DNA from: Naegleria gruberi
Taxonomy: Eukaryota
Length of the DNA stretch: 64,000 bases
Direction: 5' to 3' (one strand)
Assembly (NCBI GenBank): GCA_000004985.1
Contig: GG738848.1
The notes under the pieces are model-generated. The model was not told the DNA's origin, searched no databases, and saw only the letters and a program-made list of their open reading frames with translations. Made by a program: the position numbers and the translations under genes. The first letter of the stretch is position 1. Every line of letters begins with the position of its first letter. This document shows positions 7,243-43,400 of this stretch, in pieces.

Positions 7243-9196
7243 TTACTTCTTCCTCTTTACAAAGCTTACGGTTAGGTCGTTTTCAGTTGCCAATTGTTTT
7301 GGAGTTTGTGAGGTTTTATCCTTTATCTTTTCACTTGCTCCTGATTGATACAAGAATCCACACAATCTCTCGGCAGTATTCTTTTCTTTCAGTCTGCAGG
7401 CGCAGTGGAGTGGTGTTTCACCCTTATCATTTTGTACATTCATACTGTCCTTACTGAGGAGAGTTAAGAGTAAATTAACAGTCTTGATGTTTGCATTTTG
7501 TACTGCCAAGTGGAGTGGTGTGTTACCAGTAGCGTCTTGTTCCTTCATCAATGCTGCACATTGGGTTGGATTCAAAAATGCAAGTCTGTTAATGAGTGGA
7601 TCGGTTCCTGTAACAGCTGCTTGATGGAGAATGTTTTGTTTCTTATCATCTCTTGAAGCAGGACCAAATACAACAGCTGGATTCGTATTTGTGAGAATAT
7701 ATTCTACAATGTTAATGTGTCCACTTGCTGCTGCTCTCATAATTGGTGTTCTACCAAACTTGTCCTTAGAGTTTATCAAAACCTTATTACCTGTTTGAGA
7801 TGAAGCCATTCCTCCCGATGAATTAACTTCAGCAGATTCACTAACTAAAAATTTGACTGAATTCAATCGTCCAGCTTCGCAAGCCATGTGTAAAATTGTT
7901 GAACCGTCAGTTGTCTTGAAATTGTAATCTCCTTCAAATTGTCCACACATTACTTGGGCAGCTTTGAAACCATGTTGAGCACTTTGCAAATCTCCAATTT
8001 CCTCATCAATAAATGCCTTATTGAAAAGCAATTGCAAAGGACTCTTTCCAAACTTATCTCTAATGTTAATCTTTGATTTGAGTTGACAAAGAATTGAAAT
8101 AGCATCGTAACCTCTATGATTACAAGCATAGTGGAGCGGTGTCGATTCAGATTCATCTGGAGCCATTATGTTACACTTGTATTTTGAGACGAGTAAAAAG
8201 ATTAATGATGATCTGTTATATTTTGCACATTGATGGAGAAGGAATGATCTTGGTTTCTCCTTATCTCTTAATTTACGTACTTCTTTATCTGTCCAAGAGA
8301 AGAATTCTTTCATTTCCTCATTACCTTCCTCCTTCAGTTTGGCACACATTTCAAGATATTGAGTAATGAACTCGTCAAACATGTCAGAACAAGTGTGGTC
8401 ATCATAACCATCAATATTTTTAACAAACTTTCTCAAGACATAGTGATATAACATTGAAGGTTTGATTTGAGTCATATCAGAAACGTCTTCGAAAGGTTCA
8501 GTTTCGGTTTCATCCTCTGCAGTTTCTACAACATCAACTACAGCATCAACAAGAGCATCCAATCCAGGTGTTGTTGGAGTACTACATTCATCCAAATTGC
8601 TCAACTATTATATATCATATGCAAATTCAATTAAATTCAATCATCATTACCGTTAATTAATTAAACAATAACAATAAACTTACTGATGGATTTGAAGGAA
8701 TTGGAGGTAATGGTCTTTGTTGATAGGATAATGATTGGGGAGATTCACTACCTGCCAAAGCCGATGATGATGAATTACTAGATGAAGACAATGGAGTTTC
8801 CTCTTCTGTAGCAAAAACAGGTTCAGAATCTTCATAACCTTCATATTTCTCTTGATTTTCCAATGCAAAATCTGTCATTGAATGATTTCTTTGGAAAGGT
8901 AAAGTTGGTGTTGAATGACTACTCTCTAACGCTGTAGGTACTGTTGGACTTTCTCCAGTTGAAGATGAATCATCTGAATATCTATTCGAATTATGTGGAT
9001 TTGGAAGAGAGGCACGAACACCAGGATTATTCAAACCAGAAGAACTTGTACTCGATGAGGTTGATGGTTTTGTAGCAGTGCCAGAAGTTACCTTTTTCTT
9101 CTTTGGTTTTCCATTCATAAATGTTTGTTTAAATAAATTCCATGATGAAGTTGTTGTTGAAGTTGGATAATAATTAGGATCGTTATATCTCGACAT
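7243..9196 (-). CDS. Ankyrin-repeat protein of about 620 aa in 2 exons: 9196..8689 and about 8602..7243, with an intron of about 8688..8603.
   Basis: Exon 1 is Ser-rich with the PxxP motif RPLPPIPSNPS and ends at a gtaagttt donor. The acceptor aatatataatag|TTG joins in frame to ..SNLDECSTP.. Exon 2 contains at least 6 ANK repeats (TPLHYAC, STILHMACEAGRLNSVKFLV, RTPIMRAAASGHINIVEYIL, NTPLHLAVQNANIKTVNLLL, ETPLHCAC). Confidence 0.7.
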
Positions 9197-10429: not shown

Positions 10430-13400
10430 ATGAATTCTAGAAACATCTACAGCAACAATGCAGGGTCGGTTGTTGGCTCAGATAGTTCTCAAGAATCACA
10501 CAATACTTCCAGCACAAATTCTTCATCATTTCAACACAAAATACGAGTGGAAGTCTTTAACTTTTTCTTTGCCTCACAGAATGTATCTAAAAAGCAAGGA
10601 GGTAAACGATTTTTTGCAATCCTATTATTGTACATACTAATTTATTGGAGTTATATATGGCTTCCTGTATTAAGCCCACAAGATTTTCACTTTGGTGCTT
10701 GGGGTTCATGGATATTTTCAGTATTTAACTATACAACAAGTTTATCAATGGATTTACTTCCGTATGAAGGAGCAATTGCTGTGGCTAGTATAACCATGAC
10801 TTTTATTGCAATAACCGTTTGTATTACTATTATTACTCTGTGGGCTGTAAAGTCTACTTCTCAATACATTAAGAAGATTCAAATGATTCTTCACATCAAT
10901 GCCTACTTAATAATAGTACTCTCTGCTCCTATAATATTTATTTTGACTAGTTTTGTGGATTGTGATTATGGATACAACCCAAGAGAATCATTGATAAATT
11001 TTGTATCTCACCATGCTAATGGTACTTCAATAAGTTCAACAGCAACTCTCACACCCATGCTCAACAGATTTACAAGCATGGAATGTTATTCAACAAATAA
11101 CATCATCTTGATGGCTGTCACCCTCTCATTCATTGCCTTATATTTTGTATTGTGTGTATTGGCCAACTTTTTGGTACCAAATTCACATCCATTAAGCTTT
11201 GCCCCAATGATAACGGAGGGTTACATCTTTCCTATTGGTATGAGTTTGGGAAATTGCATTGGAATTTTGGTACATTTCCTCATACCAGCAGAGTATGCTT
11301 TTGTGAGGTCTATTGTACATTTAGTATATGGCATGTGCATGCTTGTTGTTATTATGAAGAGTTTGCCAATGTATAGAAGATATGAAAACACAATTGTATG
11401 TGGAGTGGTATGCGCAAGATTTGGCACATCAATAGGAAGTATCATTTCCTTTTTTGTAAATGCATCGAACACTGCTGAAATTGGTATTGGAATGTGGGCT
11501 TTAACAACAGGACTGGCTGTTGGATTGGGTTTAGTGGGAGCTGTATCTATGGATATTTATACTCGTTACGTAATTTACTTTATCAAAACTAGATATATCT
11601 TATCAGTAAGATCATCTGATAGATCACTTGAAAAGGAAGCAACAAATATTTATTTCAAATTGGAAGAGGATGGAACCATGTACAAAATGATGTTATATAT
11701 GAGATTTGTTTTAATGAGATATGCTAGAACAAAGACAGAGGAATTAGAAGACAAGTACGACTTGGTTGCATTGATTTCATTCATTAGAGGAATAAGCTCT
11801 CAAAAGTGCTTCAGCGATATTGAACTGTTATCTATGGCTGGAACACTTGTTGGTTATCTGATGGTTGATGAAATGCACTCTTCATATTTTGCTCAAGCTT
11901 TGCTAAAGAGGGCTCTTAAACAGCGACCAGATGTCTATAAAAGATTCCTCATTCATCAAAGATTAAGGGAAGTAGAATTAACAGGTGCTGATGATGTTAA
12001 GGGAAGTAGAACCGTGCTTGAGTTGAAATCTATAATGCTCAATATTCAAAAATATATTACTGAACTCACTTCGTTACATCGTCACTTCTGGAAGGAATTG
12101 ATGCAGGAAATTGTGAACTATGAAAAGGCAGAAAATATAGTTGCAAGATGCTCTGTTATCAACCATGAATTAGATTCCATGTTCGACAACATTTTATCAC
12201 TGTACTATAATGACAAAACTGTACTGAGAACTTATGCCAGCTATTTAGAAAATTTCAAATTCAACAAAGAGCTTGCCAATGAATATTACACAGAAGCATC
12301 AAGTTTGGAAGAAGAAGAATCAAGGATTCCTCTCGCTCAAAAAGGTAATAGAAGGACAAAGAACAAGGTATTCCCAGATGTTCAGGAAAGTGTGGACATA
12401 TCTAAAAAGCTAGGCCCAAAAGGTTTGGCCGTTGGTAGAAGTGTTGCATTTGAAAATTTGGAAACAGCAAGTTACTTGTCTAGCAATATGGATTTTAATG
12501 GGGTTGAGAATGCTAATGCTGATACAAAGAGAGAAATTGGGTTTAGAAATGCCCTTTCTCTTCCTGATTCACACACCATTCACATTATTACTTTCGTTTT
12601 CTTTATTGTATTTGCTTTCATATTATTAGTTGTTGGTTTGGTTATTGGCTTACAATTCTCCAAAGGTGTAACAATGAATGTTGTTAATGTAATTGAAGCT
12701 TGCTCTCCAATATGCGCCTTGAGCAATGTTTTACAATCTGTTCGAGCATTCCAAATGCATTCAATGTTCAACTCTACCCTTGGCTCTTCCAATATTCCAT
12801 TAACTTTAACATCAGAGTCCTACATTGATTTGGCAAATACTAAGATTTTAGTTTCCAAATTCAAAGATATTCTTGTAAATCTGCAACAAAAAGCCTACAA
12901 TGCCAAGTTCGATGGAACTGTTTATTCAAATTATCATGAGGTTTACAGTGAAATTTACATGCCAAACATTGGTGATGATTCAAAATTTTATAACCACACT
13001 ACAAAGATCAATGTGACAGTGACAGATGTAACCAATACCCTTATTAAGATTTCTGATCAAATTATCAATTCAAAGGAAAATGATATAACTAAAACACTGA
13101 ACAGTTATGGATTCATGTTCCTTTACATCAATCATGAATCAATTACAGACATATATGACAAATTTTGTAATATCTTTACTGATTCTGCCAAGACTGAGGC
13201 CCTAGCAATCAACAATATCTTCACGATATATATTTCTGTGTCTCTGGCCACGTTTATATTGTGTGGAGCACTTTACATGATATTCTCAAGAAAGGAATTG
13301 ACAGTTGTTAGGGAGCAAATCAAACTCATTCAACATAATGTTTCCAAGAATGAAATTGGTAAATTATTCCATGATTTGGGTAAAAAAGTTGGTGACGAGG

Positions 13401-15695
13401 TTTCAATTCACATATCTAGAAATTCTCTATTCAAACCAAAGAATGCATTCTTGATCGTTTCTGCCTTTTTAATTATTATTGTTTCAGTGAGTTGTGGAAT
13501 TTACCTTGACCAAACTTTGGGTAATTCAACATACAGTTTTGAATCATACATTACAATGGAGGATGGTTTCGATACAATGACTCACTTGCAGTATGTTTCC
13601 TTTATTGGAACAGAGTATTTTTCACATGTAACAACAAGTATTGTCGGTTCTGAAACGTTACAGCTACTTGATGATGATGAAGTAGAAGCAATGGAGGACA
13701 AATTGTCTTATCTTACAAAGCAATTGAGATATTTTTGGAATCTGTGTATGTATGGTTCTTCAGTTAAGGCATATGAAACTCTTGTGGTTGGTATGTTCCC
13801 AGAGACTGATCAAATGATTAGAGGTTCTGTGAATTGTACTGTTGAAAAGTTGTCTGAAACCTATATTGCTGGAGGTAACAATTCCACAACATGTGAAATG
13901 GGCATTGACTATATGGTACAAGATACCATTCTAATGATTTACAAAATGGTTCAAGATTTGGAAGGTGTTCATCATTCCAAGGGTAAAACATCAATATCCA
14001 CTCTGATTGATTTATTGAATGATTATTTTAAAATCAATTATATGACCAAGACCATTTCCTTAAAGTTAATTGAATTTTCCAACATTTTTGCTGTCAAGTC
14101 ATCAACTCCTCTATTGAACAACATGATTGGTCTGGCAGTGGTTGGATTTGCAAGTAACATAATTTGTGCCATATTAATGTTCCTCTTGTTGAATAATCAT
14201 AGAAGAAGTGCATTTGCAATGAGAGGTTTATTCAACTATCTTTCCATTGATACATTGGAGAATAATGAGAAATTGAGAAACTATGCTCTATACCATACTC
14301 TTGGAGACAATGTACTTTCTAAGCTCAAGACAAAGAAACAAACTCAAAACGGAGAAGATGCTAAAGTCAGATCCATTTTGAATGCTGCTGTTGATGGTGT
14401 TGTACTTTGCTCTAGCTCTGCAAGTATTGATATTTTCAATCCAGCAGCTCAGAGAATGTTTGGTAATCAACAAGAAGATGTTATTGGCAAATACATTTTC
14501 ACTCTATTTGCACCACAGCATCATGGAGAAATTAGAAAATCAATTGAGGGAATGAAACATACTGTATCAGCCAATGATTCAAAGGGAGAAACCTTTGAAA
14601 TTGAATGTATAAGAAAGAATAATACTACATTCCCAGCTACGGTCAATATTTTCGTAACAATTTTCGACAAGAAACCAATCATTACTTGTTTTATCAAGGA
14701 TATTACTTCAGAGAAGAAGGTATGTATTTAATCAAGTAGTTATTTTAATTTACTTTTTACAATAATAGCACAATTCATTACTTGCTGAGGAAAAGAAGAA
14801 TTCAGAGACCTTATTGTTGAATATTTTGCCTGGAGCTGTTGCTTCGAAACTTAAATCTGGAGCATCTCTTATTGCAGAAAGATTCCCAGATGTAACTTGT
14901 TTCTTCTCAGACATGGTTGGATTTACATCACTCTCTTCCAAGTTGACTCCCAATGATCTAGTCCAAATGCTTAATAGTATTGTTATGGGATTTGATGATT
15001 TGATGGATAAATATCACTTGGAAAAGATTAAGACTATTGGTGATGCTTACTTTGCAGCAGGTGGTTTGCATGATTTGAATGCTCAATCTGATCACCCGGA
15101 AAGAGTTTTGAGATTTGCTATTGATACCTTCTCTGTCATTAGAGCCTACAATTCTGAGCATAGAAAGGGAAGAGTAAATGAACAAATCAATATTAGAATT
15201 GGTATAAATACTGGACCAGTTGTAGCAGGTGTTATTGGTCGTAAGAAGTTTGCCTACGATTTATGGGGTGATTCAATTAATACAGCCTCAAGAATGGAAT
15301 CTAACAGCAAGCCTGGAAGAATTCAAATTTCACGTTCGACCTATGAGAGAGTTCACGATTTGGGATTCACCTTTGAAGAAAGAAAGATTGAAGTGAAAGG
15401 AAAAGGTTTAACTCAAACTTACTTACTAGATGCCAAACATCATCAATCTGCTGTACTAACAGAGGAGGAGCTTACTGTAACTATAACAACCAATCAAGAT
15501 CACTATCAAGATGCTGATATTGAGCTAGAAGAAAATGAGGAGAGTTACCTCGAATTGGAAAAAACACATTTAGAAAAACCAAGTTTGCCTGTTGGTCAAT
15601 CAATGACATTTGGAAGTGTCAGTGAAATGAGTGATGAGCCTAATCCAAAAACTATTCCAACGATTCCAACAATCACAACAACAGAATTTGAATAA
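10430..15695 (+). CDS. Large multi-pass membrane adenylyl cyclase of about 1740 aa. It has about 7 N-terminal TM helices, a roughly 600-aa loop region, about 4 further TM helices, a PAS domain and a class-III cyclase catalytic domain. Two exons: 10430..14719 and 14769..15695.
   Basis: The intron GTATGT..AATAG (14720..14768, 49 nt) joins ..DITSEKK to HNSLLAEEKKNSETLLLNILPGAV in frame. The PAS-like block is VDGVVLCSSSASIDIFNPAAQRMFGNQQEDVIGKYIF..FEIECIRKNNTTFPATV. The cyclase domain carries FSDMVGFT and KIKTIGDAY (both metal Asp residues), YDLWGDSINTASRMES (Asn and Arg present) and the specificity pair Lys (K-TIGDAY) and Asp (YDLWG). This pair predicts ATP specificity, i.e. an adenylyl cyclase. 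Confidence 0.8.
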
Positions 15696-19650: not shown

Positions 19651-22600
19651 ATGCCTTCGCCATCTCTTCTTGATAATCCTTTTCAAGCTGTGCAAAGCAC
19701 ATCTGCTTTGTACACAATCAATATTAGATCTTTCTTTCTTCAAAAGAGAGATCGAATTGTTTTCTTGTCAGTTGTGATCATACTACTAACTCTTATACTT
19801 CCGCTATATCATGATATTTATTATGAGAATAGTTTACTTTCAAATACAATATTTTGCACAAATAATTTAAATAATGAGAGGTCAAATCAAATATTTTCGA
19901 CTGATGAATGGTCTGATAGCATGCACTGCAATTCTTATGTTGCAAACCATCCATTCATCAAGAATTGTCAATTCTCTGACTATTTTCCTCAATTTTTAAG
20001 AAGCATTCCAAAGATTTATATAATTTTTGCTGAATACGCGATCAAATTTATAATTTACATGTTTCTGTTGATGATATATTGGAGATTTCATAATGTAATG
20101 AACAAGCTCTTCAAGTTTTTATTACTTAATGAAACAATAGAAATGGAAAATGAGGCAAGGCAGCAAAGAACCTCAGGGGAATCACATCATGTGTACCTGC
20201 TGTGTTCTGAAGTTTCTAGATGTTTGTGTTCATCAATTTGGATAATGAGTGTACAAATGGTGTTGGGAAGAAATGCTCCAGCTTTTTTATGGATTTTAGT
20301 ATATAGTTGTCTTGGTTCGGTTGCTCTAGAAATGAGTAAGAAGCCAAGTATCGATTCCAAACAACAAACACATGTGACGCCTCCACCTGAACGTTTGCCC
20401 ATGTACAGAAAAATATTTAACTTTTTAAGGAAACTAATAATAGGCACACATGCGACAACATACGTTACTATTACAGTAATGGTGATATGTGAGCTCTTTG
20501 TAATGATTTACTATTTGAAATATTCAGCTTCATTTTGCTCATGCGTTGTAGTTTCTATTCTTATTGTACAAGTAATGACTATTGAATTGATAGATTTTAT
20601 GAGAAATCACTCTATTGAGTTTGTACAACAACGAGAGATGCAAAGTATGAAAAAAGTAGCCAATTTATATAAGAATCTATACATGACAGCACCTGACACA
20701 TTTCTCTCATGTGTATGCGATAGTGATGATGTATTAGTAAGACCATCCGATACAAAGGTGGAATCAGCATACTTGTTTCTTCAGTCATTCAAGATTGTCC
20801 AATACAACAACACAGCAATAGATACACTTTCATGTGCTTCCTCACTCTCCATTAATCCTGATAATTATTATAATCATTCAGATCATGAAGTGACTCTTGG
20901 TGATGTGATTATTAATCCTTACAAAGAATCTGATGAGGTAATGAGAACAGCAGCACTTGGAGGAAATTTACTCAGTGTCAGCGATTTACAAAACTCTGCT
21001 GTGTTGAAGCTTGGTGAAGTGTTGCAGGATGTTATTCAATCACCTTTTGACCAAACATCTAAGCAAACACCAACTCACGAGAGAATCCTCCCCTTGTTTG
21101 TTAAAGGAAAAAATCAAACAATACTAACATGCTCTTTGAGTATATCAAAGATTTTGCTCTATGATATCGACTCTGCAGGTGAGGGAATGGTCTTTTTTAA
21201 TATCATTCTTCACGACATTACTCAAAAATACAAACTATTGGATGAAATCAATGTAGAAAAGGAGAAAGCTATTGAGGCCAACAAAGCAAAGAGTCAATTT
21301 TTAGCACAAATGTCGCACGAATTGCGAACTCCTCTTCATGGTATTATTGGCCTTACTGATGTGTTGCTATCAAAATGTAAAGAAGAAACAGAAAATGAGA
21401 AAAACTTGGACACGTTTGATAAGGCTGTAAATCTCAATAATATTTGCAAGGATAGCGCCACTATTGCATTTGTGGAAAGTGAAAAATCTCACTCACCAGT
21501 ATTGGAACAACAAACGAACATTATTCAGACAATAAGGTATAGTGGTAACATTTTACTAGGCCTTATTAATGACTTATTGGATATTTGCAAGATTGAATCC
21601 TCGAAAATCAAGTTGGAAAATAAGAAGTTCAATTTGAGACGTGCTATTGACCAAATTCATTGTGGAATGTTTCAATTACAAGCTAGAGAAAAATCATTAG
21701 AGTTCAATTTACAGCTCGGTGAGAATGTTCCAACTTTTATAGTTGGCGACGAGTATCGTCTTGTTCAAATCCTTATCAACCTGGTATACAATGCCATTAA
21801 ATTCACCGATATGGGATCAGTTTCTCTCATTATTGAGTCAAAACCACCATCTGAAGACAACGTTTATGAGCTTACATTTAAGGTAACTGATACTGGAATC
21901 GGAATTTCGCAACATGATTTGAAGAGATTGTTTCAACCCTTCTCTCAAATATTGAGCACTTCACACAAGCAGACCAAGATTAATGAAGGTACTGGCTTGG
22001 GTCTTTACATTTGCAAACAACTTGTCGAAATGATGAGAGGTACCTTGTGTGTTGATAGTGAGGAAGGCGTGGGAAGCACTTTCTGGTTTACCATTAAATT
22101 CCATGGTGAGTTTATTCCTGGCTTTGAAGAAACAACCCGCTCCAAGATACTTTCTAAGAATGTATCGTCTAAATCACTGCTATCCCTAGAAAATTGCAAG
22201 AAAAATGAGCTAACAACAGTTAGAACACCAACTATTGAGGATTTTGAATCAAGTTTACCAAAATTGAAAATTCTAATAGTTGAGGATAATGCAATCAATA
22301 GAATTGTTTTGATTAATATGTTGAAGAAAATTGGTTGTACAAATATTGCAGTGGCTCAAGATGGTTTGGAGGGTGTTCAACAATTTGAAGAATTTAAAAA
22401 GACCAATCAACTTTTTGATATAATTTTTGTTGACATTTTCATGCCTAGATTGGATGGTTATGGAACTGTAAGAAGAATACTGGAACTAGAATCCAACGAT
22501 CCTTCCGATCATCACTCGATTCTAGTAGCCCTGACAGCAAATGGGTTTGAGGAAACCAGAAATTATTGTCTAGAGCATGGATTTGATGTGTTTATGAGCA

Positions 22601-22680
22601 AGCCATTCTCAATTACTGATTTAGAGCAGTGTGTAACAAATTGCATGACCAGAATCCATCCAAGTAGTATAATTCCGTAA
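19651..22680 (+). CDS. Hybrid sensor histidine kinase with a C-terminal receiver (response-regulator) domain and an N-terminal multi-TM sensor region.
   Basis: 1009-aa ORF. The HisKA H-box is SQFLAQMSHELRTPLHGI. The HATPase N and G boxes are LINLVYNAIKFTD and GTGLGLYICKQLVEMMRGTLCVDSEEGVGSTFWF. The receiver is KILIVEDNAINRIVL..FDIIFVDIFMPRLDGYG..SKPF, with the phospho-accepting Asp in FVDIFMP. Hydrophobic segments are present in the first roughly 300 aa. Confidence 0.85.
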   Translation: MPSPSLLDNPFQAVQSTSALYTINIRSFFLQKRDRIVFLSVVIILLTLILPLYHDIYYENSLLSNTIFCTNNLNNERSNQIFSTDEWSDSMHCNSYVANHPFIKNCQFSDYFPQFLRSIPKIYIIFAEYAIKFIIYMFLLMIYWRFHNVMNKLFKFLLLNETIEMENEARQQRTSGESHHVYLLCSEVSRCLCSSIWIMSVQMVLGRNAPAFLWILVYSCLGSVALEMSKKPSIDSKQQTHVTPPPERLPMYRKIFNFLRKLIIGTHATTYVTITVMVICELFVMIYYLKYSASFCSCVVVSILIVQVMTIELIDFMRNHSIEFVQQREMQSMKKVANLYKNLYMTAPDTFLSCVCDSDDVLVRPSDTKVESAYLFLQSFKIVQYNNTAIDTLSCASSLSINPDNYYNHSDHEVTLGDVIINPYKESDEVMRTAALGGNLLSVSDLQNSAVLKLGEVLQDVIQSPFDQTSKQTPTHERILPLFVKGKNQTILTCSLSISKILLYDIDSAGEGMVFFNIILHDITQKYKLLDEINVEKEKAIEANKAKSQFLAQMSHELRTPLHGIIGLTDVLLSKCKEETENEKNLDTFDKAVNLNNICKDSATIAFVESEKSHSPVLEQQTNIIQTIRYSGNILLGLINDLLDICKIESSKIKLENKKFNLRRAIDQIHCGMFQLQAREKSLEFNLQLGENVPTFIVGDEYRLVQILINLVYNAIKFTDMGSVSLIIESKPPSEDNVYELTFKVTDTGIGISQHDLKRLFQPFSQILSTSHKQTKINEGTGLGLYICKQLVEMMRGTLCVDSEEGVGSTFWFTIKFHGEFIPGFEETTRSKILSKNVSSKSLLSLENCKKNELTTVRTPTIEDFESSLPKLKILIVEDNAINRIVLINMLKKIGCTNIAVAQDGLEGVQQFEEFKKTNQLFDIIFVDIFMPRLDGYGTVRRILELESNDPSDHHSILVALTANGFEETRNYCLEHGFDVFMSKPFSITDLEQCVTNCMTRIHPSSIIP

Positions 22681-22903: not shown

Positions 22904-24541
22904 ATGGAAGATATTCTTGTAACTTGTTTCGTGTACATCCCTCTTGGATGTATTCTTTTACTTTCAATCTTATTGGTGGAAAGATACGTTCAATATAAGA
23001 AACTTTGCAAAAAATATGAACACTTACCAGGTGTTACTCAATTTTTACCACCTCACATTGCTCAATTCCTTCCTAAATGGATGCTCCCAGATGGAATCAT
23101 TGATAATCCATTCGAAATCTTTACTCCAGACACAATCCTTCGAATCATTAAGGAAAATAATAGTGATTACTTTAAAATCATATTTGGTATTGCCAATTTA
23201 TCATTTGTTATTGGTGACTGTCCTGAATTAGCCAAAGAATTTGCAACCAAGGGTGCAAAAGTATTCAGAAAAACAGAATTTATGGACAGATCGAGTAAAG
23301 AATTATTTTTTGGAACCAACGTATTTGCTGAGCCAGACCACCATACTTGGTTAAAGCATAGACAATTAATTGATCAAAGTTTTTCACCATCCAATTTGAA
23401 ACTTGTTGCAGATGTTACTAATGAAGTGGTTGAGAAGGATATGATTCCTGCCATTAATTCTCAACTTGAAAGAAGAGATGTAATGGTTGACATGGCGAGA
23501 TTGACAATGGATGTTATTGGAAAGGCAGCTTTTGGATATAGTCTTAATTCATTCCATTCAAAGCCAGGTGAAGTAACCTTGGAACAACAAGGTAATATTT
23601 TTATGAGCTATCTTGATTATCTGAGAGTTATTCCAACAAAATTTTTGAGAAGTAACCTCAAAATTGGTGCTGTTGGTAAATTGCACTTTGCTGTTAAATC
23701 ATTCACTGATGTCATTAGTAAGATTATTGAAAAGAGAGAACGAAGTGATGATAAAGATGAAGCTGCCGATATTTTGTCTCTCCTATTGAAGGAGAGAAAG
23801 AATAATAGAGATCAATCGAGTGGTGGCATTTTGACTGATGAAGAACTAGTGTCAAATTCATTTGTGTTATTAGTGGCCGGCCATGATACTACGTCTAGAA
23901 CACTTGGTTATGCCACTTACTTACTCTCCAAGAATCCTCATATTCAACAAGAATTGCACGATGCAGTTGACAAAGTCGTAAAGGAAACTGGAAAAGATAC
24001 ATTTGATTTCTCAGACTATGAAAGTGGAAGATTGGACTATGTGAAAGCAGTATTTAATGAAGTGTTGAGATTAATCCCTGTTGCTTTTGGTTCTTTCAGA
24101 GATTTAACCAAAAATGTTGAATATAACGGAACAGTATTTCCAAAAGGAGCCATTTTTGGCATTTCATTTGTTCACACTCTCGTCAATGAAAAGTATTGGG
24201 ACGAACCATTATCTTTCAAACCAATGAGATTTATCAAGGATGGAAAGTTTATTGTTCCAAACAGTAATCCATTTGTTTTCACGCCATTTGGTGTCGGTGG
24301 AAGAATTTGTGCAGTAAGTTATTGAAATCAATCATCATGATTATTAATATTCTCTCTATTATCTATATATCAATAGGGTCGTTATTTCTCAACAGTTGAA
24401 GGATTATGTGCATTGGCCAAGTTAGCTAGAACCTACTCTTTCAAACTCTCAGATCCAAATTATGTTGTTCAACACGAAATGCACATTACATTGAAGCCAA
24501 AAGAGACTCTCTATGTTGATTTCATTCCTCGTCAACTCTAA
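22904..24541 (+). CDS. Cytochrome P450 monooxygenase in 2 exons: 22904..24313 and about 24377..24541.
   Basis: N-terminal membrane anchor. ETLR and PERF-like regions are present. The heme-loop FGVGGRICA|G is split by a GTAAGT..CAATAG intron of about 63 nt, and exon 2 supplies GRYFSTVEGL..DFIPRQL*. Confidence 0.8.
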
Positions 24542-24711: not shown

Positions 24712-27083
24712 ATGTCTCGTGTTCAACCAATCACTGAGAATGGTGCAGTAGAAACAACCACACCTTATACACCAAGGAAGATTATTGAAAGCAAATCCAA
24801 AGTTCTCAACTTTTTAACCTCTATCAAATTTACTCTGACACTAATAATATTTCTGGTGATATTGTCATGTACAATAGTGTTCGATTCTATTTGGATGTCT
24901 GTCTTTGCAGGCGAAGTGAGTAAATTAAGTGAGAATGTGAGAAAATCAGAGTTTAATTTAATAATATCCAACACTGAGAGATCCATTAAGAAAGTGGTGT
25001 TGGCTTCGGAATTGGCAAAATCTCAACTTTATTCTGGTTTTGACTTCTCAAATGAAACCCAGTCTATGTCTCATACTTTTAGAATGCACAAAGCTATCAA
25101 ATCACATTTGAATGATCTACATATGCTCCTAGTTGGTGATTCCAATGGAAATATGTATGGAATAGAGCTGGAAGAAACCTCAGTAATGTTCACCATTGTA
25201 AACCAAGAAAAGGATCAAAGTTATTGGAATTGTACAGATCCAGATAAAAATGACGAATGTATTCACGGTGATTTTCCAGAGAGAGTTGAACCCTATTCGG
25301 ATTATACTTTCATTCCTCAGATAGCATCCAATAATCAAGGAAGGACGCTTTTCTCACCACCATTTATTGATTCACATTCTAATCAATTGAGTATTGCTTG
25401 CACTAGTATTTTAGCCATTCCTCCCTCATCCAAAACCATTAACTTTGTAACCATGCTTTGAATCTTGGGGAGTTTTTTGAGTTTCTTCATGAACAAGCAG
25501 ATAATATTCTAGAGGCTATTGCATTTGTCTTTGATACAAAATCCAGACTCTTGATTGTCTCTAGTAGTAAACAGAAGTTCTCTTCTGAGAGTTCCTCCAC
25601 ACTGAAAACATTCTCTGATGTTGGGGGAAGAATAGAAATAATTGGAAATCAAGTGGCAGCTCAGTTCAATAATGACTTGCAAAATTTTCCATGCAACACT
25701 AACTTGACTTTTGTGTTTGATCTTGTTACCTATGTATCTGTAGGAAGAATGTGTAATGAAGAAGGAATTGATTGGATATTTGTATATGATGTTCCTCAAT
25801 GGAATTACATGGGTTATACTACTCACCTTATTGCTTCGGGTAATGGGTCAATTGGGCTGTTGATAACCATGTTTATTCTGGCGTTTATATTTTCCAGTAT
25901 AGTTGTTAAGCCATTCAAAACGTTGATAGCATCGTTTGAATTGGTTTCGAATATGCAACTGGATAATTTTCAACTTTCGCCATCACTCATTTCTGAAGTG
26001 AAATCCTTGCAAGTTCACTTTATAGGTATGGTGGAAAGAATTAGATTGTACAGAAAGTTTATTCCAAGTCACTTGTTGAGTAAGTTGGACAACAACAATT
26101 CAGAAGATGATGTTGAGAATGTTGAAACATCTTTACAAGAAAAACCACAGGATTCACCTTTCTCAAATTCTCATTCAAGCAGTCTTTCAAGAAAACATCC
26201 CAAACAACAACCTTCAGATAATGTATTCTCGCTTTATTTGGAGAATAAGAAAGTTACAGTAGTGGCAGTGTTTTTGGACGGTGTCAATAACTTGTTCAAC
26301 AATGCCAATCCAAAAGAGTGTCTTTCCATTTTGACAGATGTTTTTGATGTAATTAACTATGTAGCAAAGATTAGTAATGGACAAGTTGGTAAATTTGAAA
26401 ATGAAACAGTTACAATTCTCTTCAATGCTTCAGGTGATCAACATAAACATGAAATGAAGGGTCTTCAATGCTGTCACTCCTTATTGAAGAAATTGATAAC
26501 TTTACAGGAAAATAAGCTATCACAGCATATTGTTTATGAGAATAATCCGACATTGAATTTAGATTTCCATATTGTTGCAACAACTCAAGAATGTATGTGT
26601 GGTAATGTGGGAACAAAGGAGATTATGAACTTTGGTGTTTTTGGAAGTGTTCAATACAATATTCAAGGCATGATTGAAACTACAAAAGAGTTGGATATTC
26701 CAATAGTTATTTCTCATGAATTATTCCAGAAAATTGACAACAAATTTCAAGTTAGATTTGTTGATTTTAAGAATTTTGTGTTGGATGATTATTATTCATA
26801 TCCAAACATTGCAGATAAAAGTCAAATTCACACACCAAGAAAAGTTTACGAATTGGGTGAAAGTATTAACAATGAAGCTGATGAATGGATGTATGAATTG
26901 AATGCAAAGGAGAAGAATGAACAATGGAATATTTACAATGAAGCATCACAAGAATATTTCAATGAGAATTTCAATAATGCTGCCACCTTACTTTCAACAT
27001 ATTTACAAAATAATGCAAGTGACAAAGTTGCTATCCATTTGAAGAAAAATTGTGAAAAGAGAATGACCATTGCAGATCTATAA
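24712..27083 (+). CDS. Receptor-like membrane protein of about 790 aa. The layout is cytoplasmic N-terminus, TM, a roughly 310-aa ectodomain, TM, a HAMP-like linker, and a degenerate class-III cyclase-homology domain (pseudo-cyclase). It is built from two abutting ORFs with an unresolved frame break near 25446-25482.
   Basis: ORF 24712..25461 has TM FTLTLIIFLVILSCTIVF. ORF 25458..27083 has TM IGLLITMFILAFIFSSIVV, then VTVVAVFLDGVNNLF...FHIVATTQECMCGNVGTKEIMNFGVFGSVQYNIQGMIET. This is collinear with the cyclase motifs VTILFSDIVGFT...IRIGIHSGPVVAGVVG..RYCLFGDTVNTASRMES. The second metal Asp and the Asn/Arg transition-state residues are substituted. A 35-nt GTAACC..TTTTTTGAG intron would join the two ORFs in frame; alternatively there is a frameshift. 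Confidence 0.5.
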
Positions 27084-27165: not shown

Positions 27166-28955
27166 ATGAAAAGACAATTTCAAGATGTCTCCTCGGCTAA
27201 TACTGTTGATACCACACTGAAAAAAGTGAAAGAAAATCCACATGATGATGCGTATTCACTTCTTGATCAATTATCGGAAGAATGCATTGAATCAGTGTTG
27301 GTGTTTTTAGGAGTTTTGAAGAAGGTATTCCATGACAAGATTAAAATGGAAAATGATGAAGACAATGATGATGATGATGATTATACTGGGTTAATTGTAA
27401 AGGGAATTGATAGAAATCAATTTGCGAAACATGCAGTGGTTAACTGGCAACAATTGAGGAATATTAGTTTAGTTTCAAAGAACTTATTCTCTAAATGTGC
27501 TCCTTTCATGTTTGAGCACGAGACTAGGCAAGTTACAAACCAAGTATTTGATAACATTTTTTCAAACCTATTGAAGCTCAGTTGAAAATGCTCGAATGTA
27601 AAATGACTTCAGACAAGTTGAAATTGAAAAAGATTAAACAATGGGAACAGTGGTTTGCTGGTGAGATTGGCCATCTTCACAAGGTACAATCCGTTGAATC
27701 ACAAAATGAATTGAAGGAAAAGGTTTTGAATAGAGCAAGCTATTCATTTAAGAATAGTAATCAGCAAATGAATGGAAGATGGGAAATTTCTGCATACTGC
27801 CACTTGATGGAAGATTTACATTTACATCATGCATTTGAATGTGATTATGATAGTTGCAGTTTTACTATTGGTTTGTTTGGAGATCTTGATCAAGTCAACC
27901 AGTCGATTAAGGAAGATTTAATGAAATATTTAGATCTTCCTAATAATACAAGTTTTAAGAGTGAAGATAGTGATGAAGATTTCTATGACGAAGAAGAAGA
28001 AGAAGACAATAGAAAGTACAATCCAGTTGAACTAATGACCTCTCAATATGTTAACAGCTCAGTTAACACCTGTGTTCTCAATTATATCAGAGAAAAGCTT
28101 GGAATTTCTTCTCAAGTCACTAATTTAGAGCTTGTTGCTGCTTTGGTTTATATCTTTCCCTATGATATTTCTGTAAAATCATCAGATATTGTCTACGAAG
28201 ATGTTCAATTTAACGACGAGGAAGTTGAGATTGATTTTACACTCAACCATACTCCAAAGAAAAGTAAGGAAAGGACATATAATGAAGAAACAGATAAGGA
28301 TATATGTTGCAAACCTTGTGAAGGTCGTTCTATTTTTGATATTGGAAATGATATGTTGCTTCAAATCCTTTCCTTTTTAAGATTTAGATATGTTGCAACA
28401 CTCTCAGAAACAAGCAAGACATTTTACAGTGCTTATTTAAGAAGTGGGTGGTCATTCCCAATTAGAATGGGTAAGGTTATCGATTCACTCTCTCCAATTC
28501 TAAACAAGCAAGGTATTGAGAGATCTCTTTCAGTTGTACGTGATGCCAGATACTATGCATTTAACACTCACCCTTATTTTGTTCAATATTTGGAAGTAAG
28601 ATATGAAAATATCGACTACCTATCCTCTGTTAAAACAGTAATGAAAGTTGGAAACCGTACTTATAGCTTTGAAGGATTTGATGATGAAGGATCAAGTCCT
28701 TATTTTACAATGGATGACATTACAAATGGGAAAGTTAAGAAATATTATCCTAAGGACCATGATTTTTACTGTTCAAATGGCGATCTAGTTGTGAGAGTGG
28801 AAGCCATTGCTACCCTAACCAACATGTTTGGATATATGGATGGTAAGGATTTAGTAGAGAAATTCTTGGAACTTCTTCCTTTTGAAAATTGGAGATATGT
28901 AAGTGAAATTAGAATTGGAGATGAGAAAAAGAAACCAAAGCCAAAGAGAAAATAA
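27166..28955 (+). CDS. F-box-like acidic protein. It is annotated as two abutting ORFs (27166..27585 and 27588..28955) that would fuse into one protein of about 595 aa with a 1-nt change in a T6 run.
   Basis: Both ORFs carry F-box-like helices (LRNISLVSKNLFSKC; DMLLQILSFLRFRYVATLSETSKTFYSAY) and acidic tracts (DEDNDDDDDY; DSDEDFYDEEEEEDNR). The first ORF's stop TGA lies 2 nt before the second ORF's ATG. Inserting one T in tttttt (about 27555) reads through in frame as ..IFFKPIEAQLKMLECKMT.. Confidence 0.4.
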
Positions 28956-40467: not shown

Positions 40468-43400
40468 TTATGCATTTTTAGCAAGATATTTTTCAATTTT
40501 TTCTTTAAACATATCATCAATGTAAGTATTTTGAATGTTAATTACTCGAATGGTATTATTCGATTTGGCAAAATCAATCAAAGCTAAAGCTGCACCAATT
40601 GAAATCAAATTTCCACTCAAATCAAGCTCAACAATTGTTGGATGAGGCTTGAGAATTGAGACTAGGGTTTCAATAGCTGGATTTCTGAACCCTTGTTTTG
40701 GCAAACTCAATTTGTGGAATTCAACATTTAAAAGAGTTTCCAAGAAAGGCTCTAATCCCTTATCACCTAAATAATTGTCTGATAAATTAACTTCTCCATC
40801 GGTGACGATAGTATTTGTGCCAAATTGAGCTCTAAGACGAGTGTTTGGTCTAAGAGATCTCTTTTCACAGTTTTCAACATACACATCCTCAAGAGTTCTT
40901 TCCTTAACAGGTTCTTCTTCCTTAGTTTCTTCCACCACATATTCAGCTTGAGCTTCTTCGACATGTGTTTCTTCTGGTTGTTTGTGTTTTTCTGGTGCGT
41001 CAACACTTGTTTCCTCATGAGGTTCTTGTTTTTCCTCTGGTTGTTGGTGTTTTTCTTGCTTGTCTTCTTGTGTTTCTTCTTTTTGAGATGATTTCACGTG
41101 TGTTTCTTCTGAGAGTTTGGTATCAACAAAAGTTTCTTGGTGTGTTTCTTCCTGTGTTTCTTCATGATGGTTTGTTTCATCTTGTGTTGTGTATGAATCT
41201 TCAATTGTTTTAGTTTCTTCAGCAAATCTCACATGATGTTCCTCTTCAGTGGAAGATTCTTCTGAAGGTTGTTCTTCAAAGGTTTCAAAATCTTCTTCAA
41301 ACGAGTCAAACTCATCTTCCTTTTGAAGTTCAGCTTGTTCTTCTTCATGAGTTGTCTCCTTTTGTTCTTTTTGGTTATCTGCTGTCTCAATCTCTTCTGC
41401 TTGTACCTCCTCTTGTTGGTCAACCTCAAAAGGCAAACTTTCTTCATGGAATGGTTCTTGAACTGTTTGTTCTCTTGGAGATTCTTCTCCAGGAAAATGA
41501 TCCATATCTGTTTCTTGTTGATGACTTGTATCTTCTTTTTCTTCAGCTTCTTCTGATTGTTCTTTCATTTCCTTTTCCACTTGATCAACAAACTCGTTTG
41601 ATTCTTGTTTAATTTCTGTTGATTCCTCATTTGCAAACTCTTCGAATTGTTCCTCGAATTGATCTTCGAAGTGATCTTCGAATTGTTCCTCATGTTGATC
41701 TTGAGTTTCCTCTTGAGTTGGTTCATGGTCTTCTTGAGTTTCTTCTTGAGTTTCCTCATATTTCTCTTCGAAAAATTGATCTGTTTCATTGAACTCTTCC
41801 GTATTTTGCTCGAATTCATCAGTAGTTTCATTGAATTGATTTTCCTCAAAGTTTTCTTCATGACTTTCAATATTTTCAAAATTCTCATGTGTTTGTTCTT
41901 GGTTTTCAAGGCTCTCGAAGGTTTCTTCTTCAGTATTTTCTAGGGCAACTTCGTTATTTTCTGAGAATTCTTGTTCAACATGTTGTTTGCTGTTTTCAAA
42001 TTCATCCTCTTTAGTGACTTCCTCAGAAGATACTTCCTTAATGGACTCTTCATGTGCTGTTTGGTGAACCTCAAAGTCCTCTTCTTCTGAAACATGTACC
42101 TCTTCTGATTGTTCTTCATGTGATTCTTCCAATTCCTCTTGCTTACTTTCCACATATTCAACTGTTTCTTCAACTTGTTTAATCTCGCTTTCCTGATTGC
42201 TTTCTTGATGTCCAATATGTTCTTCGGTGCATTTAATTTCATCATTTTGTTCTTTGTGACTGTGTTCCTCAATAATTTGCTCCTCTTGTTCCTCAACCTT
42301 TTTGACCTCATCAACACTTTCGTGCTTAACTTGATGATGATCTTCAACCCTATCATGGTGTTCTTCATTCTTGATATCTTCCCTATGTTCTTCAGTTGTC
42401 TCAATGTTTTCATGATTCTCTTCGGTATGTTTATGCTCTTCAACAGATGCTTCCTCAATAGCTTGAGGTTTCTCTGTATTGGCAACTTCAAAAGGTAAGC
42501 TTTCCTCTTGAGGTGGTTCTGTAACTGGTTCCATTTTTGGTTCTTCTTCTTTGACAATTTCTTGTGCATGGATTTCTACTATTTCTTCAGTTTGCTCTTC
42601 GGAGGATTTGTTAATAATCTCAGTCTCTTGATATGCAATATTTTCTTGCTTATCATCGTGATTATGCTTTTCCTTCTTCTCTTCATTATCATGCTTTTCC
42701 TTCTTCTCTTCGTGATCATGTTTCTCAACCTTTTCTTCTTTCTTATCGTCTTTCTTCTCTTCAGGATCATGTTTTTTCTTCTCTTCCTTTTCTTCCTCAA
42801 CTTTCTCATCGTGTTTAAGCTCGTTTTTCTTCTCTTCATGATCATGCTTTTCCTTTTTCTCTTCACGATCATGAATCTCAACCTTTTCTTCCTTAACTTC
42901 CTCATGGTTATGTTTATCCTTCTCTTCATGAACATGTTTCTCAACATTTTCTTCCTTAACTTCCTTCTCATGGTTATGTTTATCCTTCTTTTCTTCATGA
43001 TCATGTTTCTCAACATTTTCTTTCTTATCCTCGTCGTGATTATGTATATCCTTCTTTTCTTCATGATCATTCTTTTCCTTCTCTTCGTGGTCATGTTTCT
43101 CAACATTTTCTTCCTTAACTTCCTTAACCTCCTCGTGGTTATGCTTATCCTTCTTTTCTTCATTTTCTGATTTTTTCTCATGACCTATTTCAAATGGCAA
43201 ACCTTCTTCTTGGAGTGGTTCTTGAATCGTTTGTTCTCTTGGGGATTCCACGTCTGCAAAATGATCCATATCTTCAATGTCTCTATGGCTTTTAGTTTCA
43301 GTATCTTCTTGTTCATGTGTTTCATGATCATCTAAGGTTTGATATTGCTCATGGTCGTGGCTTTCAGGAAGGGTAGAGCTGGTTTCATCATGATCCTCCT

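What the first reader, a model, noticed from the sequence alone, without database searches (positions are those of the whole stretch)
24712..27083. Receptor-like protein with a degenerate cyclase-homology domain (candidate pseudo-cyclase)
The cytoplasmic domain is collinear with class-III cyclases (VTVVAVFLDG...TVTILFNASGD...FHIVATTQECMCGNVGTKEIMNFGVFGSVQYNIQGMIETT). The first metal Asp appears to be retained. The second metal Asp, the substrate-specificity residue and the Asn/Arg pair are replaced. Upstream are two TM helices flanking a roughly 310-aa ectodomain, and a HAMP-like amphipathic linker follows TM2. The protein looks like a ligand-sensing receptor that signals through a dead cyclase scaffold.
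Basis: partly seen in the sequence, partly recalled or inferred. Interest (0 to 1): 0.65.

Follow-up and report, generated by a model that had tools for sequence, protein, structure and literature searches.

The report
Frameshifted receptor with dead cyclase domain
This Naegleria gruberi locus encodes a bacterial-style membrane sensor whose cyclase-like output domain has lost its catalytic residues; it belongs to a large amoeboflagellate family of such "dead-cyclase" receptors, but this copy is broken by a one-base frameshift and is probably a recent pseudogene.

Summary
Window 24712-27083 (+), in Naegleria gruberi, encodes TM1, a dCache ectodomain of about 315 aa, TM2, a HAMP-like linker, a cyclase-transducer motif (FIPSHLL), a Ser-rich disordered linker, a class III cyclase-homology domain (CHD) and a helical tail.

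Pfam finds nothing in the window protein. The homology is still solid: family profile vs PDB cyclase CyaB E 3e-12, hhalign vs canonical CHDs E 4e-25, and AlphaFold/Foldseek TM 0.83 with only class III cyclases in the top 50.

- Metal Asp1 is lost (Phe). The Asp in FLDG sits two residues further on.
- Metal Asp2 is Glu.
- The substrate Lys and the Asn are kept.
- Substrate Asp/Thr is Gly.
- Arg is Met.

At least 100 Heterolobosea relatives share this degeneracy. A Willaertia relative with matching sensor sequence keeps the canonical residues.

The 25440-25520 problem is not an intron. It is a single-base frameshift in a T-run (25457-25459). No annotated N. gruberi protein matches the gene. A 98-99% identical metagenome contig lacks 1920 bp of it, and a contig 99% identical over the CHD carries a 2-nt deletion. 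dN/dS of about 0.2 argues that any decay is recent.

Verdict: a new variant of a known kind, of moderate interest.

The parts
24712..25458 (+). Upstream reading frame (249 codons; stop TGA at 25459-25461). It encodes the N-terminal cytoplasmic stub, TM1 and the first ~185 aa of the ectodomain.
   Evidence: ORF list. Aligns to the N-terminal halves of P0001-P0006.
24826..24903 (+). TM1 (about residues 39-64, SIKFTLTLIIFLVILSCTIVFDSIWMSVF)
   Evidence: Kyte-Doolittle 19-residue windows above 1.6 at residues 30-49. The SIK...IW motif is invariant in the family.
24904..25826 (+). Ectodomain of about 315 aa with a double-Cache (dCache) fold, interrupted by the frameshift
   Evidence: AF2 model of P0001, the 65%-identical homologue (ectodomain pLDDT 85-92). 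Foldseek then returns dCache ligand-binding domains: PctD, TlpQ, Tlp3, TlpC, Mlp37 and PctA, with target TM 0.55-0.69. Pfam MCP-like_PDC_1 or dCache_1 hit 5 and 3 of 50 family members.
25443..25461 (+). Frameshift zone. Both frames are open only here. One base is missing from the T-run at 25457-25459 (ATGCTTTGAAT). Adding one T restores ...FVTMLLNLGEF...
   Evidence: Three-frame translation. Collinearity with P0001 (FVTIVMNLEVL) and the other homologues. Nucleotide alignment with L001. There is no room for an intron.
25458..27083 (+). Downstream reading frame (541 codons plus stop TAA at 27081-27083). It encodes the rest of the ectodomain, TM2, HAMP, CTE, the linker, the CHD and the tail.
   Evidence: ORF list. 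Alignments A1 and A3.
25827..25907 (+). TM2 (residues ~373-399, core IGLLITMFILAFIFSSIVV)
   Evidence: Hydropathy windows at residues 373-389. AF2 shows a continuous helix into the HAMP-like segment.
25908..26051 (+). HAMP-like helix-connector-helix (KPFKTLIASFELVSNM / QLDNFQLSPSLIS / EVKSLQVHFIGMVERIRLY)
   Evidence: AF2 helices 2-19 and 34-56 with a 14-residue connector. P13 and E41 are invariant in 25 family segments. Family profile vs PDB gives NarQ HAMP residues 174-228 at E 0.04 and the Af1503 HAMP chimera at E 1.3, in the correct register. No Pfam HAMP match.
26046..26090 (+). Cyclase-transducer-like motif LYRKFIPSHLLSKLD
   Evidence: F and P are invariant, and Y about 90% conserved, in the family. 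It resembles LNILPGAVASKL in the window's canonical cyclase and FLPPHLAEMI in P0165. The name CTE comes from my own knowledge of class III cyclases.
26091..26225 (+). Ser-rich, low-complexity, predicted-disordered linker between the transducer motif and the CHD
   Evidence: AF2 pLDDT about 30 for model residues 69-113. Its length is 40-88 aa (median 58) in 94 family members. It is absent from the canonical Willaertia relative P0108, which has about 20 aa there.
26226..26870 (+). Degenerate class III cyclase-homology domain. Asp1 is F, Asp2 is E, the substrate Lys is kept, substrate D/T is G, Asn is kept and Arg is M.
26871..27080 (+). C-terminal helical tail, TPR-like (DEWMYEL...W..YN.A...F...A..L...D..A....C)
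   Evidence: Three AF2 helices with pLDDT 75-92. D, E and W are conserved in 70-78% of 105 members. A similar tail is visible by eye in the bacterial CHASE2 cyclases P0010 and P0161. A few members hit TPR Pfam families.

Best explanation
The locus is an unannotated copy, disrupted by a frameshift, of a family found across Heterolobosea. The family consists of bacterial-type receptors with the layout TM1, dCache sensor, TM2, HAMP, cyclase-transducer motif, Ser-rich disordered linker, class IIIb cyclase-homology domain and TPR-like tail.

In this family the CHD keeps its fold and generic structural residues (GNxG, His, Arg184). It has lost the residues needed to make cAMP or cGMP: the first metal Asp, the transition-state Arg and the KGK hairpin Lys.

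Inferred mechanism for intact family members: a small ligand binds the extracellular dCache module and the signal crosses the membrane through the TM2/HAMP dimer. The output is not nucleotide cyclisation. Instead it is a change in how the dead CHD dimer and its helical tail engage partner proteins, or active cyclases, with the Ser-rich linker a possible phosphorylation target. The CHD would serve as a scaffold or regulator rather than an enzyme.

For this particular copy in N. gruberi, a missing base in a T-run splits the gene inside the ectodomain. Most likely no full-length receptor is made from this allele, which makes it a recent pseudogene.

What is shown: the architecture, CHD homology, loss of catalytic residues, family size and spread, and the frameshift. 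What is inferred: the non-catalytic signalling mode, and that the frameshift is real rather than an assembly error.
For: Organism: three neighbouring ORFs are exact matches to N. gruberi proteins EFC49187, EFC49194 and EFC49195.

CHD homology:
- Profile vs PDB: CyaB E 3e-12, Cya2 E 7e-10.
- hhalign probability 99.65%, E 4e-25.
- Foldseek TM 0.83 to CyaB, with all top-50 hits class III cyclases.

Degeneracy:
- In 105 aligned family CHDs, the Asp1 column is D in only 4 (mostly K/Y/H/R/L; F in the window).
- The Arg column is L or M in 85 of 105.
- The canonical controls P0010 and P0108 read D, D, N, R in the same columns.

Family:
- 137 representatives (50% identity clusters) at E<=1e-30, many full length.
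- Named members come from N. gruberi, N. lovaniensis, N. fowleri, Percolomonas, Pharyngomonas and Willaertia.

Other domains: dCache fold and the HAMP-like segment.

Linker: 40-88 aa of disordered sequence separates the transducer motif from the CHD in 94 members. The catalytically canonical Willaertia relative has a tight junction of about 20 aa.

Disruption:
- Frames switch within 25443-25461 with no missing residues relative to homologues.
- No identical annotated protein appears in any search or exact look-up.
- Contig L002, 98-99% identical in the flanks, lacks window 24748-26667.
- Contig L001, 99% identical across the CHD, has a 2-nt deletion at 26594-26597 that truncates the CHD.
Against: - dN/dS between the window copy and the L001 copy is 0.19-0.25 in every domain. 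Apart from the single frameshift, both frames are free of stops over 790 codons. Any pseudogenisation is therefore very recent, or the frameshift is an assembly error or a single allele.
- L001 and L002 come from one metagenome assembly and could be chimeric or represent minority variants.
- No data here show that intact paralogues are expressed, that they dimerise, or that they lack activity.
- Asp2 (as D or E), Thr/Ser at the substrate position and Asn survive in about half of the family. Residual nucleotide binding cannot be excluded.
Confidence: 0.6

Rival explanations
1. The gene is intact and functional in the organism. The frameshift would then be a sequencing or assembly error, or be confined to one haplotype, and the locus encodes a working 790-aa dCache-HAMP pseudo-cyclase receptor that the annotation missed.
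For: There is only one lesion. Both frames are otherwise stop-free, and one added T restores perfect collinearity with homologues. dN/dS is 0.19-0.25 against the L001 copy. The CHD is 95% identical in protein to the L001 copy. Intact paralogues exist in N. gruberi (P0002, P0005, P0015).
Against: Three independent sequences of this gene or its near-identical copy each carry a different disruption: a 1-nt loss in the window, a 2-nt loss in L001 and a 1920-bp loss in L002. No gene model matching it was found. From my own knowledge, the N. gruberi draft is a Sanger assembly, in which errors in a run of 3-4 T's are uncommon.
Confidence: 0.25
2. The CHD is still an enzyme. It would be a non-canonical nucleotidyl cyclase, or the substrate-binding (C2-like) half of a heterodimer with a canonical cyclase, such as the one encoded 10 kb upstream.
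For: The window CHD keeps the substrate Lys, an acidic residue at Asp2 and the Asn. Half of the family keep Thr/Ser and Asn. From my own knowledge, heterodimeric class III cyclases need only one complete site. N. gruberi has many canonical cyclases (PMC9928731; window 14769-15692).
Against: A C1-like role needs both Asp residues, and Asp1 is Phe. A C2-like role needs Lys, Asp/Thr, Asn and Arg. Arg is Met or Leu in 85 of 105 members, the window has Gly at Asp/Thr, and the KGK hairpin is gone. The 'catalytic' columns vary freely across the family (K/Y/H/R/L at Asp1), which is not expected of a conserved alternative active site. The disordered 40-88 aa linker uncouples the CHD from the transducer helix.
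Confidence: 0.1
3. The resemblance to cyclases is a chance similarity, or the domain is a GGDEF-type or other palm-like domain mislabelled as a CHD.
For: Pfam Guanylate_cyc gives no hit on the window protein at E<=1. One family member gave a weak GGDEF_GdpP match at E 0.06.
Against: Profile, profile-profile and fold searches all return class III cyclases exclusively and over the full domain. 18 of 50 family members hit Guanylate_cyc at E<=0.01, the best at 2.5e-10.
Confidence: 0.02

Closest known systems
Bacterial class IIIb sensor adenylyl/guanylyl cyclases (P. aeruginosa CyaB 3r5g, Synechocystis Cya2 2w01, Spirulina CyaC 1wc1) and dCache/CHASE2-HAMP-CHD receptors
   Same: The CHD fold (TM 0.78-0.83), the GN[ILM]G motif and the conserved His and Arg. 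The layout is also shared: an extracytoplasmic sensor, then TM, HAMP, transducer motif and CHD. A similar helical tail is visible by eye in the CHASE2 cyclases P0010 and P0161.
   Different: Metal Asp1, the transition-state Arg and the KGK Lys are lost. A disordered Ser-rich linker of 40-88 aa is inserted between the transducer motif and the CHD. The host is a eukaryote (Heterolobosea).
Willaertia magna KAL9648894 (P0108), which matches the family profile across part of the ectodomain (profile positions 18-330) and has a canonical CHD
   Same: It matches the family profile in the sensor region. Its CHD aligns column for column with the family.
   Different: P0108 keeps D, K..GD, N and R, and has a tight junction of about 20 aa between transducer motif and CHD. 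It is presumably an active cyclase. The window's family is the degenerate offshoot.
The single Cache-containing 'bacterial-type adenylate cyclase' reported for Naegleria (Upadhyay et al. 2016, PMC4822843)
   Same: A Cache sensor fused to a class III cyclase domain in Naegleria, interpreted there as horizontally acquired.
   Different: That survey reported one such protein, found with Pfam models. The family here has several named N. gruberi members, and Cache-type Pfam models hit only 3-5 of 50 family members. Its CHD is degenerate.
Pseudo-symmetric, non-catalytic sites of heterodimeric class III cyclases (the mammalian AC C1/C2 forskolin site, soluble guanylyl cyclase alpha/beta). This comparison rests on my own knowledge.
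   Same: A CHD that has lost part of the catalytic set is retained for its fold and its dimerisation or regulatory role.
   Different: In those enzymes each half still contributes a complementary subset of residues to one active site. Here neither the C1-type set (two Asp) nor the C2-type set (K, D/T, N, R) is complete.

Membership tests
Class III nucleotidyl cyclase homology domain (Pfam PF00211 Guanylate_cyc) | CHD fold and sequence homology over the whole domain | tested here: met
   Foldseek TM 0.83 and E 1.4e-12 to CyaB, with all top-50 hits class III cyclases. Family profile vs PDB E 3e-12. hhalign E 4e-25. Single sequence vs PDB E 4.8e-5.
Class III nucleotidyl cyclase homology domain (Pfam PF00211 Guanylate_cyc) | Score above Pfam's curated threshold | tested here: not met
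   No Pfam family at E<=1 for either window ORF. 18 of 50 family members reach E<=0.01.
Catalytically competent class III cyclase | Two metal-binding Asp residues (F-x-D-I-x-G-F-T and K-x-x-G-D) | tested here: not met
   The Asp1 column is Phe in the window and D in only 4 of 105 family members. The Asp2 column is Glu in the window. The controls P0010 and P0108 read D and D.
Catalytically competent class III cyclase | Substrate-specifying pair (Lys plus Asp/Thr for ATP; Glu plus Cys for GTP) | tested here: not met
   Lys is retained (GKFENE), but Gly occupies the Asp/Thr position (NFGVFG).
Catalytically competent class III cyclase | Transition-state Asn and Arg (N-x-x-x-R) | tested here: not met
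   Asn is retained (QYN) in the register validated by controls P0010 and P0108. Arg is Met, and L or M in 85 of 105 members. The ungapped hhalign register would put Tyr at Asn and Gly at Arg. Arg is absent in either register.
Catalytically competent class III cyclase | Measured formation of cAMP or cGMP | not testable with these tools
   This needs an enzyme assay on an intact paralogue.
HAMP domain (PF00672) | A helix-connector-helix of about 50 aa directly after the last TM, with Pro in helix 1 and Glu at the start of helix 2 | tested here: met
   AF2 helices 2-19 and 34-56 with a 14-residue connector, starting at the end of TM2. P13 and E41 are invariant in 25 family segments.
HAMP domain (PF00672) | Significant sequence match to HAMP models or known HAMP domains | tested here: inconclusive
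   No Pfam HAMP hit. Family profile vs PDB gives NarQ HAMP at E 0.04 and the Af1503 HAMP chimera at E 1.3, in the right register but below threshold.
dCache (double Cache) extracellular sensor | A long N-terminal helix plus two stacked PAS-like modules between two TM helices | tested here: met
   Tested on P0001, the closest intact homologue (about 55% identical in the ectodomain), because the window's ectodomain is split by the frameshift. AF2 pLDDT is 85-92. Foldseek returns dCache LBDs (PctD, TlpQ, Tlp3, TlpC, Mlp37, PctA) at E 1e-8 to 1e-6 with target TM 0.55-0.69.
dCache (double Cache) extracellular sensor | Pfam dCache_1 or MCP-like_PDC_1 match | tested here: not met
   None for the window ORFs. 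3 and 5 of 50 family members match. The family profile does retrieve dCache-annotated proteins P0011 and P0162.
Pseudogene | A disrupted reading frame relative to intact homologues | tested here: met
   A one-base frameshift at 25457-25459 with no intron possible. Whether it is real or an assembly error could not be tested.
Pseudogene | Relaxed selection or multiple lesions | tested here: not met
   There is a single lesion. dN/dS is 0.19-0.25 against the L001 copy. This fits only a very recent inactivation.

The most novel reading that the evidence does not exclude
Heterolobosean amoeboflagellates carry a large radiation of bacterial-type dCache-HAMP receptors: at least 100 representatives at 50% identity across Naegleria, Percolomonas and Pharyngomonas. 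Their class III cyclase domain has become a true pseudoenzyme. It is uncoupled from the transducer helix by a disordered Ser-rich linker and is used as a ligand-controlled scaffold, or as a regulator of the many active Naegleria cyclases. This would be a receptor pseudo-cyclase class analogous to pseudokinase receptors, and it is largely invisible to Pfam models.
Probability: 0.45. Interest if true: 0.6.

Novelty: new variant of a known kind. Interest (0 to 1): 0.42.

Why it matters
Class III cyclases are among the most widespread signalling enzymes. Naegleria is known for its huge cyclase repertoire (81 or more; PMC9928731). If a sizeable share of its 'cyclase domain-containing' receptors cannot make cyclic nucleotides, then counts of cyclases overstate cAMP/cGMP signalling capacity in these amoebae, including the pathogen N. 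fowleri, which has family members.

A family-wide loss of catalytic residues with the fold retained would add cyclases to the list of enzyme folds recycled as pseudoenzyme receptors. A published survey reported a single Cache-containing protein in Naegleria. This family shows that Cache-type sensors are more common there than that.

For this specific locus the practical consequence is small. It is a missed, probably broken, gene in the N. gruberi annotation.

Tried and rejected
1. Intron models across 25440-25520. GT..AG combinations with the right phase exist only at lengths of 26, 35 or 68 nt from GT 25447, or by removing conserved residues from GT 25406. Homologues are collinear with no residues missing, so a one-base frameshift explains the junction. 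The intron was rejected.
2. Pfam on the window ORFs at E<=1 found nothing. On 7 close members it gave only one marginal Guanylate_cyc hit (E 0.04) and one dCache_1 hit (E 0.16).
3. Widening the word-indexed protein search with alignments added few sequences. This kept the AF2 alignments shallow, at 11-12 rows.
The ectodomain fold therefore had to be tested on P0001 rather than on the window protein.
5. Exact-product look-ups of the three possible window ORF products found none on record.
6. Two metagenome pattern scans, one for the frameshift site and one for a conserved CHD 26-mer, gave no matches. There is therefore no independent read on the T-run.
7. Literature searches for pseudocyclase or pseudo-cyclase terms and for PRJEB11402 gave no papers.
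8. Reading the L002 junction as splicing. The only splice-like boundary is a non-canonical GC..AG 'intron' of 1920 nt, inside a contig that retains the intergenic DNA. A genomic deletion at a GCA microhomology is more likely, but this was not proven.
9. The idea that the Asp of FLDG could be the metal ligand was rejected, because all three alignment methods agree on the register and the canonical controls confirm it.
Full report
**What is there**

The window is Naegleria gruberi. Three nearby ORFs are exact matches to EFC49187, EFC49194 and EFC49195, on a 712,659-bp scaffold.

At the reported coordinates there are two abutting + strand ORFs in different frames: 24712..25461 (249 aa) and 25458..27083 (541 aa). 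Hydropathy gives two TM segments that flank about 315 aa.

**The junction is a frameshift, not an intron**

Both frames are open only between 25443 and 25461. The closest homologue, P0001, reads ...FVTIVMNLEVL... where the window reads ...FVTML(stop) in one frame and LNLGEF... in the other. The two proteins are therefore collinear residue for residue. Adding one T to the run at 25457-25459 restores a 790-aa protein. No sequence is left over for an intron.

**Is the C-terminal domain a cyclase-homology domain?**

Pfam says nothing about the window protein, even at E<=1. Every more sensitive test agrees on homology:

| Test | Result |
|---|---|
| phmmer, window CHD alone vs PDB | Cya2 E 4.8e-5; CyaB E 1.6e-3 |
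| Six-sequence family profile vs PDB | CyaB E 3.1e-12; Cya2 E 6.8e-10; CyaC E 5.5e-5, all full-domain |
| hhalign, 102 family CHDs vs canonical CHDs (including the window's own cyclase at 14769-15692) | probability 99.65%, E 4e-25 |
| AF2 model of window 25893-27080 (CHD core pLDDT 85-95) vs PDB by Foldseek | only class III cyclases in the top 50; best CyaB, target TM 0.83 |

**Catalytic residues**

Three alignments give the same register:
- HMMER alignment to CyaB
- hhalign to the neighbouring canonical cyclase
- hmmalign with the canonical proteins P0010 and P0108 as internal positive controls, which read D, D, N, R

| Position | Canonical | Window |
|---|---|---|
| Metal Asp1 (D of F-x-D-I-x-G-F-T) | D | Phe |
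| Metal Asp2 | D | Glu |
| Substrate Lys | K | kept |
| Substrate Asp/Thr | D or T | Gly |
| Asn | N | kept |
| Arg | R | Met |
| KGK hairpin Lys | K | absent |

The ungapped hhalign register would shift the Asn/Arg pair by one residue, and Arg is still absent.

**Family context**

A full-length profile search of 1.84 billion representatives found 137 proteins at E<=1e-30. Many cover the whole architecture. Named members come from N. gruberi, N. lovaniensis, N. fowleri, Percolomonas cosmopolitus, Pharyngomonas kirbyi and Willaertia magna. A subfamily adds N-terminal ankyrin repeats (15 of 50).

In 105 aligned CHDs:
- The Asp1 column is D in only 4, and otherwise a free mix of K/Y/H/R/L.
- The Arg column is L or M in 85.
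- Generic CHD structural residues stay above 90% conserved (GNxG, His, Arg184).

The Willaertia protein P0108 matches the family profile across part of the ectodomain (profile positions 18-330). It keeps the canonical residues and a tight junction of about 20 aa between the transducer motif and the CHD. The degenerate members instead carry a disordered Ser-rich insert of 40-88 aa there.

Some members are auto-named 'Guanylate cyclase domain-containing protein' by UniRef. I found no paper describing them as non-catalytic. A 2016 survey reported Cache in only one Naegleria protein (PMC4822843).

**Sensor and linker**

I therefore modelled P0001, which is about 55% identical in the ectodomain. 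The ectodomain pLDDT is 85-92. Foldseek returns dCache ligand-binding domains of bacterial chemoreceptors and kinases, with target TM 0.55-0.69.

The segment after TM2 is predicted as helix, 14-residue connector, helix. Its Pro and Glu are invariant. It gives sub-threshold but correctly registered matches to the NarQ and Af1503 HAMP domains. It is HAMP-like in structure, and sequence membership is inconclusive.

**Is this copy alive?**

No annotated N. gruberi protein matches it. Two contigs from one metagenome assembly are informative.
- L002 is 98-99% identical to the window flanks (P450 upstream, F-box gene downstream). It jumps from 24747 to 26668, so it lacks 1920 bp of the gene.
- L001 has different upstream genes. 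It is about 70% identical over the ectodomain and 99% identical from about 26270 onward. It has a 2-nt deletion in GTATGTGTGG (26594-26597) that truncates the CHD.

So three sequences carry three different lesions. Against long-standing decay, dN/dS between the window copy and L001 is 0.19-0.25 in every domain. dS falls from 1.2 in the ectodomain to 0.13 in the CHD, which suggests gene conversion at the 3' end. I put about 70% on a real, recent inactivation and about 25% on an intact gene with an assembly or allele artefact.

**Mechanism**

This part is inferred. Intact family members probably act as dimeric ligand sensors (dCache, then TM2/HAMP). Their dead CHD and TPR-like tail would then serve as an interaction or regulatory platform rather than an enzyme.

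Heterodimerisation with active cyclases is possible. By canonical rules, however, the domain can supply neither a complete C1-type set of residues nor a complete C2-type set.

**Verdict**

The finding is a new variant of a known kind, namely a degenerate, eukaryote-expanded branch of bacterial-type sensor cyclases. The specific locus is probably a recent pseudogene. Interest is moderate.

Noticed in passing
window 10430-15692 (+): A large canonical cyclase gene lies 9 kb upstream. It consists of a 1433-aa ORF with TPR_TmcB and PAS domains, followed after a break of about 40 nt by an ORF with a full Guanylate_cyc domain (E 1.3e-56; FFSDMVGFT, KTIGDAY, NTASRME all canonical). The two are probably one gene joined by a short intron near 14729-14768. 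It served here as the canonical control.
   Followed up: partly
window 19651-22677 (+): A hybrid histidine kinase (HisKA, HATPase_c, Response_reg) with an N-terminal TM region lies two genes upstream. The neighbourhood is therefore rich in bacterial-type sensor proteins (cyclase, histidine kinase, dCache pseudo-cyclase).
   Followed up: no
L001 1322-3500 vs window 24712-26819: Identity between the two copies climbs from about 70% (ectodomain) through 85% (HAMP) to 99% (from window ~26270 onward). dS is 1.2, 0.43 and 0.13 respectively. This is the signature of a 3' gene-conversion tract between paralogues, or of a chimeric metagenome contig.
   Followed up: partly
L002 ~2164 (window 24747/26668): The deletion junction sits in a 3-nt GCA microhomology. 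The 1920 bp removed is a multiple of three. Whether it is a real allele in a close relative of N. gruberi or an assembly artefact is unknown.
   Followed up: partly
window 26871-27080 and P0010/P0161 C-termini: The helical tail of the family (DEW..EL...W..Y..A...F....A..L....D..A....C) resembles, by eye, the C-terminal tail of the bacterial CHASE2-type class III cyclases P0010 and P0161 (EEQKKWKLLYEEALRRYWAKDFAGARRLFAQVLE...). This hints at the bacterial lineage from which the heterolobosean family derives.
   Followed up: no
window 40471-46281 (-), especially 42641-43163: A 1937-aa ORF with no Pfam match lies in a region of extreme strand composition (AT skew -0.44 to -0.47, GC up to 0.425). 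It contains 27-, 48- and 66-nt tandem repeats, and 200-aa ORFs overlap it on both strands. It is probably a low-complexity, charged repeat protein.
   Followed up: partly
window 22904-24325 (+): The cytochrome P450 ORF (473 aa, Pfam E 1.4e-55) is not in the protein collection as an exact sequence, although its neighbours are. The N. gruberi annotation probably uses a different gene model here. The metagenome relative L002 also has a 473-aa call.
   Followed up: no
window 27166-27585 and 27582-28955 (+): A 139-aa ORF ends four bases into the next ORF. The next ORF is the annotated F-box protein EFC49194, which starts at 27588, and it is in another frame. This is either very tight gene packing or another frame break.
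   Followed up: no
window 49775-52510 (-), 54201-55961 (+), 59509-60885 (+), 7246-8475 (-): Ordinary eukaryotic genes that confirm the gene-dense context: a class I-like PI3-kinase (RBD, C2, PIK and kinase domains), a Myb protein, a class I/II aminotransferase and an ankyrin-repeat protein.
   Followed up: no
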